Positions 36,870-39,049 of a stretch of 64,000 nucleotides of DNA are shown one piece after another. A program made the translations under genes and the position numbers. The stretch is from Escherichia phage moskry. The number at the start of each line of letters is the position of its first letter. Position 1 is the stretch's first letter. The stretch is from the sequence record MN850651.1, one strand, 5' to 3'. The notes below the pieces were generated by a model. It did not search any database. It was not told where the DNA came from and saw only the letters and a program-made list of their open reading frames with translations.

Positions 36870-36907
36870 CATCTTTTTTAAACTTTTTCTGCCCTAAACG
36901 CACAAAA

Positions 36908-36925
36908 GGGAGACCGAAGTCTCCC
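36908..36925 (-). terminator. Intrinsic terminator after the 59-aa basic ORF
   Basis: Minus sense GGGAGAC-UUCG-GUCUCCC followed by UUUUGUG. Confidence 0.75.
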
Positions 36926-36930
36926 TAAAA

Positions 36931-37110
36931 TTATGCAACAACCTTTCCAAAACGAGAAGCATCATCTCGAAGAACTGCACGTGCTCTGCGCATGATCTTC
37001 TCAACTGTTTGATTAATACGAGAGTTCGACCCACGCTTGTATCCAGCGCGTTTAGAGGTACCATCAACTTTCTTTTCAACTGCTTTCTTTGCTTTAGCTT
37101 GTTTTGCCAT
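36931..37110 (-). CDS. Small highly basic protein, 59 aa (not in ORF track)
   Basis: Translated by hand: MAKQAKAKKAVEKKVDGTSKRAGYKRGSNSRINQTVEKIMRRARAVLRDDASRFGKVVA; followed by GGGAGAC-UUCG-GUCUCCC terminator hairpin; overlapping track ORFs 36894..37079(-) and 37009..37242(+) judged spurious; coordinates +/-2 nt. Confidence 0.6.
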   Translation of the reverse strand: MAKQAKAKKAVEKKVDGTSKRAGYKRGSNSRINQTVEKIMRRARAVLRDDASRFGKVVA

Positions 37111-37406
37111 TATAAATTCTCTTTAAATGAAAATGCAGGACTTATTGACATTGCCTGCGCAAGCCCTCAAGGGGAACATAGGTTTTGGATATTTAACGAC
37201 AGGATAACCATAAACCTCGTCATCATACCAACCACGACTTAGACAGATAACCTTTTTCTGACGCGTGATAGTATAAAATACATTCAAGAGGTACACCGTA
37301 AAACTGCCGGGGTCTTAAAACTATAATGATTCGCAAATCATTAATCAGACAGTTCGACGGCTCCTCGATTTTCTAGCCGCACTTAAGGTAGCGAATCACC
37401 TAAAAC

Positions 37407-37655
37407 TTATTTAAGGGTGATAACAAAATGACGTACTGCTTTACGAGCTGCAGAAGCCAAAGGCTTAGCATATTTCAGTTCATCTTTTGCTTCCAGTTCA
37501 GAAGCCAAAGCTGCCTGTACCGGGTTCAGATGTTTGAAATATCGCAGGATTTCAAGAGCTTCGGCTTCAACATCAATAGATGCGCCATAGTTTTCGTGGC
37601 CGTTATTCCATGCGTTTCGTTGCAGTTCAAGAGCGTGTTGTAATTGTTTAATCAT
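37407..37655 (-). CDS. rIII: rIII lysis inhibition accessory protein
   Basis: 82 aa, same length as T4 RIII; MIKQLQHALELQRNAWNNGHENYGASIDVEAEALEILRYFKHL. Confidence 0.95.
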   Translation of the reverse strand: MIKQLQHALELQRNAWNNGHENYGASIDVEAEALEILRYFKHLNPVQAALASELEAKDELKYAKPLASAARKAVRHFVITLK

Positions 37656-37771
37656 TTTAAATTCTCAATTCGAGATAATATTTAGTAGCCACGTTCGTCT
37701 GAATTTCACTTCCTTTCGACAAGTCTCTCAGTTGTAGGCTACCGCTTAGAAGAGTGTTCTCTTCATATAGT

Positions 37772-37779: not shown

Positions 37780-38112
37780 TCACTTATAAAGACACGGAAT
37801 AGCTTTATAGTGGCATGTTACGAATTTCTGTTTAATTTCTTTAGGATGTTTAAGTCCCAAAGCCACAAATGGATGTGGAACATTTCGAATTTGTCCAACT
37901 GGTAGTGGAGTCAAATCACCGACTTCAACAAAACCTTTAGGAACATCAGGACCTACAGAATGAACTACACATAGTTCAGGAACTTCACCTTGAACACGTT
38001 TACCAATCACAAGTCCTGATTCGGTAACTTCTTCATCACCTGCTTGAGCGGGTTCAGAAACCAGAATAACATATTCACCAACAGCACGAATTGGGAGTTG
38101 TACTTCAGACAT
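37780..38112 (-). CDS. 31: Co-chaperonin gp31 (GroES analogue for capsid folding)
   Basis: 110 aa; [29 protein letters not shown] matches T4 gp31 (111 aa). Confidence 0.95.
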
Positions 38113-38467: not shown

Positions 38468-39049
38468 TTATTCACCACAAAAGTTTCGGATTTGTTCCCA
38501 ATTCAGAGAACGAAGATTATTACGAGAGTACTGAATTACTTCAATACCGGCTTGTTTTAGAATGTCGGCCCAATTTTCAGGAGATCTGTCATATAATTCC
38601 GCGTATACAACCTTTTTAATACCTGACTGCGTAATAGCTTTAGTGCAATCAGGACACGGAGAAAGCGTAGTATATAACGTAGCACCTTCAATAGAATTAC
38701 CTTTACGAGCTGCAAACAAAATTGCGTTCAGTTCCGCATGGATTTCGTTATTAGCAGACCATGCACTATGAGCGGCCCGATGTTCTTTAGCCAAAACAAA
38801 ATTATCCACCCGTCCAAATGCTGTAGTGCCTTCTTTATGCCCAGCAACGATGACCGGGCTTGGTTTATTCTTCAACCAACCGTTTTCGGATGCATGTTCA
38901 CAACAGTTAACACCACCGGCCGGGCTACCGTTATACCCAGTAGAAATAATGCGCCCATCTTTTTCAATGACGGCACCAACTTTCCATGAACAACATTTTG
39001 ATTCTTGAGAAATCAGATATGCAATCTGAAGGTATGTGCTAGCTTTCAT
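38468..39049 (-). CDS. cd: dCMP deaminase
   Basis: 193 aa as in T4 Cd; MKASTYLQIAYLISQESKCCSWKVGAVIEK; zinc-binding HAE...PCxxC deaminase motifs. Confidence 0.95.
   Translation of the reverse strand: MKASTYLQIAYLISQESKCCSWKVGAVIEKDGRIISTGYNGSPAGGVNCCEHASENGWLKNKPSPVIVAGHKEGTTAFGRVDNFVLAKEHRAAHSAWSANNEIHAELNAILFAARKGNSIEGATLYTTLSPCPDCTKAITQSGIKKVVYAELYDRSPENWADILKQAGIEVIQYSRNNLRSLNWEQIRNFCGE

What the first reader, a model, noticed from the sequence alone, without database searches (positions are those of the whole stretch)
37111..37406. Approx. 300 bp non-coding, hairpin-rich gap downstream of rIII
In a genome where genes typically abut or overlap, roughly 296 bp between rIII and the 59-aa ORF contain no ORF longer than about 19 codons on the transcribed strand. 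The stretch holds several perfect short hairpins (AATGATT-cgca-AATCATT; ATCACC...GGTGAT directly after the rIII stop; GCAGG...CCTGC). It could encode a small RNA, a long structured leader for the basic ORF, or be the scar of a deleted gene or mobile element.
Basis: seen in the sequence. Interest (0 to 1): 0.5.

Follow-up and report, generated by a model that had tools for sequence, protein, structure and literature searches.

The report
Phage copy of ToxI antitoxin RNA
The 296-base gap after the T4-type lysis gene rIII is non-coding structured RNA whose first 35 bases copy ToxI, the bacterial RNA that restrains the suicide nuclease ToxN, so it is probably a phage counter-defence decoy, apparently not reported before in T4-like phages.

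Summary
The gap (37111-37406, transcribed on the - strand) is real. It occurs in all 58 relatives that keep rIII and 30.9 (120-687 nt). It encodes no conserved protein: the 57-codon GTG ORF that one GenBank record annotates is broken in T4, T2 and others. The gap is a mosaic of small RNA modules that are better conserved than rIII itself and whose order differs between phages.

Module S (37401-37367) is a single unit of ToxI, the 36-nt antitoxin RNA of type III ToxIN abortive-infection systems. It matches 32 of 35 positions of the pECA1039 unit and keeps all six core pseudoknot pairs. It also keeps the C27-U28-A29 triplet required for ToxN binding, and a ToxN cleavage motif (AAAU) lies on each side.

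S units in different T4-like phages match different plasmid toxI classes. One Serratia T4-like phage carries two tandem units at this same locus.

The other window modules have covariation support but no database match or known function: a roughly 79-nt stem-loop (A) and an H-type pseudoknot (B, 37223-37177, found in about 52 of 56 distinct gaps).

Best reading: a non-coding RNA that includes a ToxI mimic. This is a new member of a known kind, previously described for phage phiTE. Anti-ToxN activity is inferred, not shown.

The parts
37367..37401 (-). Module S: a single ToxI-like (pseudo-ToxI) unit, AGGUGAUUCGCUACCUUAAGUGCGGCUAGAAAAUC. In ToxI numbering A1 = 37401, pairs are 2:15, 3:14, 4:13 and 9:25, 10:24, 11:23, and C27-U28-A29 = 37376-37374.
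   Evidence: blastn against plasmids finds 75 records, all four inspected lying directly upstream of ToxN/AbiQ toxin genes, including pECA1039. The toxI repeat units were read with TRF. Pseudoknot pairs are 95.6% kept, 3 of 6 with double changes. Identity is 32/35 to the pECA1039 unit.
37409..37412 (-). AAAU motif (ToxN AA^AU cleavage motif) 5' of S, overlapping the rIII stop codon.
   Evidence: Pattern scan. The cleavage specificity is taken from PMC5086642.
37368..37371 (-). AAAU motif at the 3' end of S, with one extra A compared with ToxI, as in the phiTE pseudo-ToxI.
37288..37366 (-). Module A: extended stem (GAGG-A-GCCGU-C-GAACUGUC ... GGCAGUUU-U-ACGGU-GUA-CCUC) capped by hairpin UAAUGAUU-UGCG-AAUCAUUA (37343-37324).
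   Evidence: 15 distinct sequences, 98.9% of cells paired, 5 pairs with changes on both sides, 0/500 shuffles reach the score, and slid controls are far lower. G-U pairs are invariant at 11:82 and 17:76, and 23:70 is U-G in 10 of 15 sequences. Identity to T4 is 98.9%, against 70.7% at rIII third-codon positions.
37244..37260 (-). Module M: hairpin CAGA-AAAAGGUUA-UCUG inside a 40-50-nt block that is absent from T4.
   Evidence: The block is present or absent as a unit and sits at different places in relatives. One compensatory variant is seen (CAGC/GCUG in L004 and L021).
37172..37230 (-). Module B: H-type pseudoknot. Stem 1 is 37223-37215 with 37203-37196, stem 2 is 37213-37206 with 37184-37177, and the A-rich loop 3 is 37195-37185.
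   Evidence: 26 distinct sequences, covariation 0.343 against 0.144 for shuffles (0/500), slid controls at most 0.133, and pairs 13:35, 14:34, 21:56 and 24:53 show several pair types. The covariance model finds exactly one copy in the 64-kb window. A regex finds B in about 52 of 56 distinct gaps.
37164..37174 (-). H1: small G+C hairpin CCCC-UUGA-GGG followed by CUUG.
   Evidence: It recurs in relatives with stem variants (CCU/AGG, CCUCU/AGAGG), before or after B. Covariation was judged by eye only.
37125..37158 (-). H2: hairpin GCAGG-14 nt-CCUGC, then the U-rich run AUUUUCAUUU, which can pair with the Shine-Dalgarno region.
   Evidence: Most relatives fold a hairpin plus U-rich run at this position, with unrelated sequences. 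The terminator scan does not call it.
37111..37124 (-). Ribosome-binding region of gene 30.9 (AAAGAG, then an 8-nt spacer before the ATG at 37110).
   Evidence: Sequence.

Best explanation
The gap is transcribed, non-coding RNA made of self-contained structured modules. It lies between rIII and 30.9 on transcripts that start upstream, including the late promoter TATAAATA at 37779-37772.

Its first module, S, is a phage-borne copy of ToxI. ToxI is the 36-nt pseudoknot RNA that holds the endoribonuclease ToxN inactive in type III toxin-antitoxin abortive-infection systems.

Inferred mechanism: phage shut-off of host transcription lets the unstable host ToxI decay and frees ToxN. The phage transcript then supplies a ToxI look-alike. 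ToxN can cut it out at the flanking AA^AU motifs (predicted product 37410-37370, 41 nt). The product re-occupies ToxN's RNA-binding groove, so the phage is not aborted.

The remaining modules (A, M, B, H1, H2) are structured RNAs that are conserved and shuffled independently of one another. Their role is not established. B's distance to both flanking genes varies. It is therefore more likely an autonomous RNA element (a stabiliser, a protein-binding site or another decoy) than a fixed-distance riboswitch.

Shown: homology of S to toxI, conservation of the fold and contact bases, non-coding status, and structure of A and B. Inferred: transcription through the gap, processing, and anti-ToxN activity.
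For: Homology of S to toxI.
- S hits 75 plasmid records with several places per record. All four inspected sites lie directly upstream of a ToxN/AbiQ-family toxin gene, in the same orientation as phage transcription. The pECA1039 toxin was confirmed as AbiQ/ToxN.
- The pECA1039 toxI consensus is AGGTGATTTGCTACCTTTAAGTGCAGCTAGAAATTC. S matches 32 of 35 positions.

Fold and contact bases.
- All six core pseudoknot pairs are kept. Compensatory changes occur across 15 toxI and phage units.
- S keeps C27-U28-A29. Mutations C27G or U28A abolish antitoxin activity (PMC3475682).
- Only three AAAU motifs occur in the gap region, and two of them bracket S.

Signs of ongoing selection.
- Phage S variants track different bacterial toxI classes. 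L041 matches E. coli pRHB30 32/32, L035 and L036 match the Enterobacter class 30/31 and 31/33, and 92A1 unit 1 matches the Lelliottia/phiTE class 33/34.
- Serratia T4-like phage 92A1 has two tandem units at the same locus.
- phiTE's annotated pseudo-ToxI differs from S essentially by the 27-29 triplet.
- ToxN homologues are common on E. coli, Salmonella, Klebsiella and Enterobacter plasmids.

Non-coding status and structure of the rest.
Against: - S is a single copy. Wild-type phiTE, with 1.5 repeats, is still aborted and needed expansion to escape. There, however, the phasing gives no complete unit and positions 27-29 are GAC.
- The 5' AAAU lies 9 nt upstream of A1, against 4 nt in ToxI, so the 5' tail of the predicted product would be longer than in ToxI.
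- T4 is blocked by an E. coli toxIN and escapes through the protein TifA rather than through an RNA (PMC9391042). The T4 S unit is therefore at best insufficient against that system. T4's unit is also the most diverged one (27/32 to its nearest class).
- No plasmid toxI in the collection is identical to the window unit, which is a chimera of classes.
- S is absent from many relatives (for example L011-L014 and L020-L023), so it is dispensable.
- Only 35 of the 296 nt are explained by this mechanism.
Confidence: 0.6

Rival explanations
1. The whole gap is only a cis-acting leader of gene 30.9, or the 3' UTR of rIII. Pseudoknot B, H1, H2 and the hairpin that sequesters the Shine-Dalgarno site would control translation, read-through or mRNA stability. 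An example would be autoregulation by the basic 59-aa product, as gp32 does with its leader pseudoknot. S would be a non-functional fossil of a past recombination with a toxIN plasmid.
For: - B, H1 and H2 lie directly upstream of the 30.9 start in the window, and a U-rich run can pair with the Shine-Dalgarno region.
- B is missing where 30.9 is missing (L038) or where 30.9 has its own early promoter (L059). B precedes a gene with a 30.9-like N-terminus in L028.
- No promoter consensus was found inside the gap, so 30.9 must be read from upstream.
- T4 gene 32 provides a precedent for a leader pseudoknot (PMC3014915).
Against: - B's distance to the 30.9 ATG ranges from about 60 to about 270 nt. 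In 13 gaps B abuts the rIII stop with S, X, H1 and H2 in between, and 18 different module orders exist.
- S shows compensatory evolution, keeps the ToxN-contact bases and matches specific toxI classes in different phages. None of this is expected of a fossil.
- Tandem duplication of S occurs in phage 92A1.
Confidence: 0.25
2. The gap encodes a small protein: the 57-codon GTG ORF at 37123-37296 annotated in PQ516281, or another micro-ORF.
For: The ORF exists and is annotated in one record. It is kept in the closest relatives L006, L011-L013 and L019.
Against: - Single-base indels inside it shift the frame in T4, T2, L004, L008 and L009, while the nucleotide sequence stays nearly identical.
- It has no Pfam or PHROG family.
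- GenBank records annotate different, mutually incompatible micro-ORFs here.
- Substitutions follow base-pairing rather than codon positions.
Confidence: 0.02
3. It is a DNA-level regulatory cassette, a terminator plus an early or middle promoter as in the PeSL elements of T4-type phages, or the scar of a lost gene or mobile element.
For: - Module presence and order vary as in hyperplastic regions.
- A relaxed early-promoter match, TTTACG-N16-TATTTT, lies at 37302-37275.
- Relatives such as L038 do carry a terminator plus an early promoter at this position.
Against: - No match to the PST/T4 PeSL promoter TTTACW-N17-TAYWAT, to a MotA box or to a late promoter inside the gap.
- The weak -10 element is deleted in T4.
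- The sigma-70 and terminator scan finds nothing in the gap.
- Conserved G-U pairs and compensatory changes point to RNA of one strand.
- No gene remnant is found in any relative.
Confidence: 0.05

Closest known systems
ToxI, the RNA antitoxin of the type III toxin-antitoxin / abortive-infection system ToxIN (Pectobacterium atrosepticum pECA1039, with homologues on Enterobacterales plasmids)
   Same: The same 36-nt unit: 32/35 identical to pECA1039, and 32/36 and 32/35 to the Lelliottia and Enterobacter classes. The same pseudoknot pairs, the same C27-U28-A29, an AAAU motif at the 3' end, and the same orientation relative to transcription.
   Different: One copy rather than 3-9 tandem repeats. 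No toxN gene next to it. It lies in a phage mRNA spacer rather than behind its own promoter. The 5' cleavage motif is displaced by 5 nt. Its sequence is a chimera of plasmid classes, with no identical plasmid unit found.
pseudo-ToxI of Pectobacterium phage phiTE (Blower et al. 2012, PMC3475682; annotated as an ncRNA in NC_020201)
   Same: A phage-encoded ToxI look-alike in an intergenic region. It shares the U9C/A25G pair, the UU (2T) loop and the extra 3' A. The units are identical over the first 26 nt and differ at the 27-29 triplet and the last base (32 of 36 aligned positions).
   Different: phiTE is an rv5-like phage (Vequintavirinae), not a T4-like one. Its triplet 27-29 is GAC, where the window has CUA. 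Wild-type phiTE has 1.5 out-of-phase repeats, whereas the window has one complete unit. Function was shown experimentally for expanded phiTE arrays and has not been tested for this element.
TifA (T4 gene 61.4), the protein inhibitor of ToxN in T4-like phages (PMC9391042, PMC10853763)
   Same: The same target system (ToxIN) and the same group of phages.
   Different: TifA is a protein that traps ToxN on cellular RNA. S is an RNA mimic of the antitoxin. Neither TifA paper mentions a toxI-like RNA in T4-like phages.
T4 gene 32 leader pseudoknot and preQ1-I type H-type pseudoknots (comparison for module B only)
   Same: B has the same architecture: two stems, a 1-2-nt loop 1 and an A-rich loop 3, and it lies upstream of a gene start (PMC3014915).
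   Different: No sequence similarity. No Rfam match even with permissive thresholds. B's distance to the start codon is not conserved. Neither a ligand nor a binding protein is known.

Membership tests
ToxI / pseudo-ToxI (type III antitoxin RNA) | Sequence homology to the 36-nt toxI repeat unit | tested here: met
   blastn E-values of 9e-6 to 4e-4 in 7.3 Gb of plasmids (listed rows; 75 records at the E<=10 cut-off). Identity is 32/35 to the pECA1039 unit read by TRF.
ToxI / pseudo-ToxI (type III antitoxin RNA) | Core pseudoknot base pairs (2:15, 3:14, 4:13; 9:25, 10:24, 11:23) | tested here: met
   All six pairs form in the window unit. Across 15 toxI and phage units, 95.6% of cells are paired and 3 pairs show double changes; 0/500 shuffles reach the score. 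The U9:A25 pair is stated in PMC3475682. The other pairs were inferred from complementarity.
ToxI / pseudo-ToxI (type III antitoxin RNA) | ToxN-contact nucleotides C27 and U28 (C27G or U28A abolish activity against ToxN of pECA1039) | tested here: met
   The window has C27-U28-A29 at 37376-37374. The requirement is taken from PMC3475682.
ToxI / pseudo-ToxI (type III antitoxin RNA) | Unit bounded by ToxN cleavage motifs (AA^AU) | tested here: inconclusive
   The 3' motif is in place with one extra A, as in phiTE. The 5' motif exists but lies 9 nt upstream of A1 rather than 4 nt.
ToxI / pseudo-ToxI (type III antitoxin RNA) | Tandem repetition of the unit | tested here: not met
   The window and about 125 phage records have a single copy. 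Two tandem units occur at the same locus in Serratia phage 92A1. Single units also occur in unrelated phages such as Kuravirus XT32.
ToxI / pseudo-ToxI (type III antitoxin RNA) | Neutralises a ToxN-family toxin | not testable with these tools
   This needs co-expression and plating experiments.
Canonical toxIN locus | A toxN gene directly downstream of the repeats | tested here: not met
   The downstream gene is 30.9, which has no PADLOC hit and falls in phrog_1427 of unknown function. This is expected for a phage mimic, so S is filed as a pseudo-ToxI and not as a TA locus.
Any Rfam 15 family | Covariance-model match | tested here: not met
   No match in the gap at E <= 10. The authentic toxI array of pECA1039 is not matched either, so Rfam holds no usable ToxI model.
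PeSL promoter-terminator cassette of T4-type phages | Stem-loop followed by an early promoter TTTACW-N17-TAYWAT | tested here: not met
   The consensus is taken from PMC4122927. No match was found in the gap on either strand.
preQ1-I or other pseudoknot riboswitches (module B) | Match to the family model, and an aptamer at a fixed position next to an expression platform | tested here: not met
   No Rfam hit. The distance from B to the start codon varies from about 60 to about 270 nt.
Protein-coding gene | Reading frame conserved among relatives | tested here: not met
   Frames are broken by indels in T4, T2, L004, L008 and L009. There is no Pfam or PHROG family.

The most novel reading that the evidence does not exclude
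The rIII-30.9 spacer of T4-like phages would be an 'RNA counter-defence island'. It would be a shuffled array of autonomous decoy or inhibitor RNAs of which the ToxI mimic is only the recognisable one. The near-universal pseudoknot B, stem-loop A and, in relatives, the 140-nt multi-helix RNA X would each neutralise a different host RNA-binding defence or nuclease. X is at least 90% identical in 386 of 407 matching records, which span Klebsiella, Escherichia, Enterobacter, Yersinia and Edwardsiella phages. S units would be exchanged to follow the toxI specificity classes circulating on host plasmids.
Probability: 0.15. Interest if true: 0.9.

Novelty: new member of a known kind. Interest (0 to 1): 0.72.

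Why it matters
ToxIN against T4 is a current model for toxin-antitoxin phage defence. The published counter-measure in T4-like phages is the protein TifA, and RNA mimicry of ToxI has been shown only for phiTE.

A conserved, class-matched ToxI-like unit in hundreds of T4-like genomes, T4 and T2 included, would have two consequences if it is active. RNA antitoxin mimicry would be a widespread natural strategy rather than a laboratory escape route. It could also help predict which phages overcome which toxIN plasmids, which bears on host range and on the choice of therapeutic phages.

The locus also yields three covariation-supported RNA structures (A, B and X). None of them is in Rfam. A 2010 review stated that no riboswitch or trans-acting regulatory RNA had been functionally characterised in T4 (PMC3014915).

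Finally, the analysis corrects spurious micro-ORF annotations in many GenBank records.

Tried and rejected
- Rfam scans of the window region, of six relatives and of the gap alone returned nothing relevant. A control showed that Rfam does not detect authentic toxI either.
- The thermodynamic fold z-score is not significant on the transcribed strand.
- The sigma-70 and terminator scan and custom T4 early, middle, late and PeSL promoter patterns found no conserved promoter or terminator in the gap.
- Self-comparison found no second copy of any module in the 64-kb window.
- I tested whether B, A, M, H1-H2 or X are sequence mimics of bacterial RNAs. blastn gave no meaningful match: WIN B against plasmids, A-M-B-H1-H2 against E. 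coli genomes, X against plasmids and E. coli genomes, and seven divergent B variants against plasmids. Mimicry of another type III antitoxin family (CptI, TenpI) could not be tested because I had no reference sequences.
- The coding hypothesis for the 57-aa ORF was rejected.
- I considered that A is a shortened homologue of X. Covariation in A instead favours a long-range helix that X lacks, so I left this open.
- For gp30.9, the only PDB match is non-significant (E = 1.1, RNA-binding protein 45) and there is no PADLOC hit.
- Literature searches for a T4 non-coding RNA or toxI-like element at rIII/30.9 found none. Miller et al. 2003 is not held in the library.

Full report
**Setting**

The window is a T4-like (Mosigvirus-type) coliphage. 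The queried 801-nt stretch (36900-37700) is 100% identical to Escherichia phage vB_EQ1 and 98% identical to vB_EcoM_WFbE185.

Genes here run on the - strand:
- cd, 38468-39049
- gene 31, 37780-38112
- rIII, 37407-37655 (phrog_1457)
- the gap, 37111-37406
- the 59-aa homologue of T4 gene 30.9, 36931-37110 (phrog_1427, function unknown)
- a strong terminator hairpin, GGGAGAC-UUCG-GUCUCCC-UUUU, at 36925-36904

These assignments rest. A late promoter, TATAAATA, lies at 37779-37772 upstream of rIII.

**Checking the observation**

The coordinates, the 296-nt length and the three hairpins are correct. Two statements need correction.

First, the transcribed strand does hold a 57-codon GTG ORF (37123-37296) and a 37-codon TTG ORF. 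The limit of 19 codons holds only for ATG starts.

Second, the region is not unusually foldable. Its MFE is -73.6 kcal/mol against -71.3 +/- 5.1 for shuffles, z = -0.45. Evidence for structure therefore has to come from comparison with relatives.

**The gap is conserved and non-coding**

T4 has a 244-nt gap and T2 a 288-nt gap at the same place, with nothing annotated in them.

I collected 40 viral-contig loci and 19 metagenome loci that carry rIII, plus GenBank records. All 58 that keep both genes have a gap of 120-687 nt, giving 56 distinct sequences.

The 57-codon ORF survives only in the nearest relatives. Single-base indels shift its frame in T4, T2, L004, L008 and L009, while the surrounding nucleotides stay almost identical. 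It has no Pfam or PHROG family. GenBank records fill the gap with different, mutually incompatible micro-ORFs.

Between the window and T4, conservation is as follows:

| Region | Identity |
|---|---|
| rIII, all positions | 87.4% |
| rIII, third-codon positions | 70.7% |
| Module A | 98.9% |
| Last 63 nt (H1-H2-RBS) | 98.4% |

Selection therefore acts on the nucleotide sequence itself.

**Modular anatomy**

Alignments show discrete blocks that are present or absent as units and occur in different orders.

- The window reads S-A-M-B-H1-H2.
- T4 reads S-A-B-H1-H2.
- Many Klebsiella, Enterobacter and Citrobacter phages read B-S-X-H1-H2.
- In all, 18 arrangements occur among the 56 distinct gaps.

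No module recurs elsewhere in the 64-kb window.

**Module B (37230-37172)**

B is present in about 52 of the 56 distinct gaps. On 26 distinct sequences an H-type pseudoknot is supported:
- Covariation is 0.343 against 0.144 for shuffles (0/500), and slid controls reach at most 0.133.
- Pair 13:35 is UA in 14, AU in 11 and GC in 1 sequence.
- Pair 14:34 is CG in 18, GC in 5 and UA in 3.
- Pair 24:53 is GC in 18 and AU in 8.
- A conserved U-G at 11:37 exists only on the transcribed strand.

In the window, stem 1 is 37223-37215 with 37203-37196 and stem 2 is 37213-37206 with 37184-37177. An A-rich loop 3 lies between them. In the window/T4 clade stem 2 is weaker: GGUU/AACC, then a bulge.

**Module A (helix 37366-37288)**

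On 15 distinct sequences:
- 98.9% of cells pair.
- Five pairs change on both sides.
- No shuffle reaches the observed score.
- G-U pairs at 11:82 and 17:76 are invariant, and 23:70 is U-G in 10 of 15 sequences.

The phylogenetic depth is shallow, so this is good but not deep evidence.

**H2 and module X**

H2 (GCAGG...CCUGC) followed by a U-rich run is replaced in most relatives by an unrelated hairpin at the same position.

Module X is absent from the window. It is a 140-nt RNA with 42 predicted pairs, 19 of them covarying. It occurs once per genome in 407 phage records, at 90% identity or more in 386 of them, which span several host genera. It has no Rfam match.

**Module S is ToxI**

The 35 nt that follow the rIII stop, AGGUGAUUCGCUACCUUAAGUGCGGCUAGAAAAUC (37401-37367), looked to me like the ToxI antitoxin repeat. 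The tools confirmed this.

- blastn of 37362-37406(-) against 72,556 plasmids finds 75 records, most with several adjacent places.
[quoted passage not shown] They are co-oriented with it. PADLOC confirms AbiQ for the pECA1039 toxin.
- Tandem Repeats Finder gives the pECA1039 unit as 5.6 copies of AGGTGATTTGCTACCTTTAAGTGCAGCTAGAAATTC.

Blower et al. 2012 (PMC3475682) number this unit so that U9 pairs with A25, U16-U18 form a loop and C27-U28-A29 contact ToxN. They report that C27G or U28A alone abolishes antitoxin activity.

The window unit compares as follows:
- It has C9:G25, the same compensatory pair as phiTE's pseudo-ToxI.
- It has the UU loop variant.
- It has the extra 3' A.
- Unlike phiTE, which has GAC, it keeps C27-U28-A29.

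Across 15 toxI and phage units, the six core pairs are 95.6% kept and three of them show double changes.

ToxN of pECA1039 cuts AA^AU (PMC5086642). Only three AAAU motifs occur in the gap region, and two of them bracket S, at 37412-37409 and 37371-37368.

Rfam's silence means nothing here, because it does not detect the authentic toxI array either.

**S units track toxI classes**

I read the repeats upstream of more distant ToxN homologues. Together with the earlier loci, this gave several toxI classes:
- Pa (pECA1039; the first three of the five repeats of an E. coli cattle plasmid differ only at the last base)
- Ec/Lelliottia (equal to phiTE unit 1)
- Enterobacter
- Klebsiella
- E. coli pRHB30

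Different phage S units match different classes:

| Phage S unit | Best-matching toxI class | Identity |
|---|---|---|
| L041 | E. coli pRHB30 repeat 1 | 32/32 |
| L035 | Enterobacter | 30/31 |
| L036 | Enterobacter | 31/33 |
| 92A1 unit 1 | Lelliottia/phiTE | 33/34 |
| 92A1 unit 2 | Enterobacter repeat 3 | 33/35 |
| T4 | pRHB30 | 27/32 |
| T2 | pRHB30 | 28/33 |
| Window | Pa; Lelliottia; Enterobacter repeat 3 | 32/35; 32/36; 32/35 |

The window unit is thus a chimera: an Ec-type backbone with the Pa-type CUA triplet.

Serratia T4-like phage 92A1 carries two tandem units at this very locus, in the order B-S-S-H1-H2-30.9.

Single ToxI-like units occur in about 125-200 phage records. These include unrelated phages such as Kuravirus XT32 (between the terminase and portal genes), Salmonella phage 7-11 and Vibrio phages JSF10 and JSF12. 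Only phiTE's unit is annotated.

**Mechanism**

The following are shown: homology of S to toxI, conservation of fold and contact bases, sense orientation, and class matching.

The following are inferred. Transcripts from the upstream promoters cross the gap. ToxN, freed when host ToxI decays, cuts the unit out at the flanking AA^AU motifs. The product binds ToxN and blocks abortive infection, as shown for expanded phiTE arrays.

Four caveats apply:
- S is a single copy.
- The 5' tail of the predicted product is longer than in ToxI.
- No plasmid unit is identical to the window unit.
- T4 is blocked by one E. coli toxIN and escapes through the protein TifA (PMC9391042), so at least T4's diverged unit does not suffice against that system.

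**The other modules**

Modules A, M, B, H1-H2 and X have no blastn counterpart. I ran WIN B against plasmids, A-M-B-H1-H2 against E. coli genomes, X against both collections, and seven divergent B variants against plasmids. Their function is open.

B is absent where 30.9 is absent (L038) or where 30.9 has its own promoter (L059). That fits a leader role. However, B's distance to both neighbouring genes varies widely. That fits an autonomous RNA better.

**Literature**

A 2010 review states that no riboswitch or trans-acting regulatory RNA had been functionally characterised in T4 (PMC3014915).

Papers on ToxIN and T4-like phages do not mention a toxI-like sequence in these phages: PMC5449768, PMC9391042, PMC10853763 and the review PMC5086642.

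Within the searchable library the element appears to be unreported. Subscription-only papers could not be checked.

**Verdict**

The gap is a real, conserved, non-coding structured RNA. Its first module is a new member of the pseudo-ToxI kind. The rest consists of structured RNA modules that are supported by covariation but not yet characterised.

Noticed in passing
Relatives only, e.g. L024:2340-2480, L005, L022 (absent from the window): Module X is a roughly 140-nt RNA with 42 predicted pairs, 19 of them covarying, and a GNRA-capped hairpin. It occurs once per genome in 407 phage records, 386 of them at 90% identity or more. It has no Rfam, plasmid or E. coli match and is often annotated as a 'hypothetical protein'.
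   Followed up: partly
L042 and L043, about 1800-2500: This is a rearranged locus. The complete leader S-A-B-H1-H2 with its ribosome-binding site is fused to the last 38 codons of rIII. After the rIII stop and the first bases of an S unit (GGAGATT) come what look like tRNA genes, although no tRNA scan was run. The junction lies inside S, which suggests that S is a recombination site.
   Followed up: no
L071:540-720 (Serratia phage 92A1, OR088902): Two tandem ToxI-like units of different classes sit side by side at the rIII-30.9 locus. The 3' end of B (GAAACCUC) repeats the junction between the two units (CUAAACCUC).
   Followed up: partly
L069:480-560 (Escherichia phage vB-EcoP-XT32, Kuravirus): A single complete Pa-class ToxI-like unit, with the GAAAUUC 5' junction, lies between the large terminase and portal genes and is flanked by hairpins. 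It is unannotated. Similar units occur in Salmonella phage 7-11 and Vibrio phages JSF10 and JSF12.
   Followed up: partly
window 37123-37296 (-) and the same gap in PQ516281, MK373778 and PQ569697: Public records annotate different small 'hypothetical proteins' inside this non-coding gap: 57 aa, 37 aa, or three ORFs of 31-38 aa. They are very probably spurious.
   Followed up: yes
L028:2407-3033; L059:1561-2046: In L028 the leader precedes a 208-aa ORF whose first 15 or so residues resemble gp30.9. In L059 a 161-aa ORF is inserted between rIII and a longer (88-aa) 30.9 homologue that has its own early-type promoter and no module B.
   Followed up: no
window 36904-36925 (-): A strong intrinsic terminator, GGGAGAC-UUCG-GUCUCCC-UUUU, lies directly after 30.9. 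It is annotated by ARNOLD in MK373778 but missed by the simple terminator scan.
   Followed up: no
window 37111-37117 (+): TATAAAT, a near-match to the T4 late promoter TATAAATA, lies on the opposite strand, overlaps the 30.9 start and points into the gap. It is conserved in T4 and T2 but not in L011-type relatives.
   Followed up: no
window 37361-37364 (-): The only GGAG (RegB endoribonuclease motif) in the gap lies in the invariant 5' strand of module A, right after S. Since RIII is reported to inhibit S1-dependent RegB activation (PMC9409239), a link with processing here might be worth testing.
   Followed up: no
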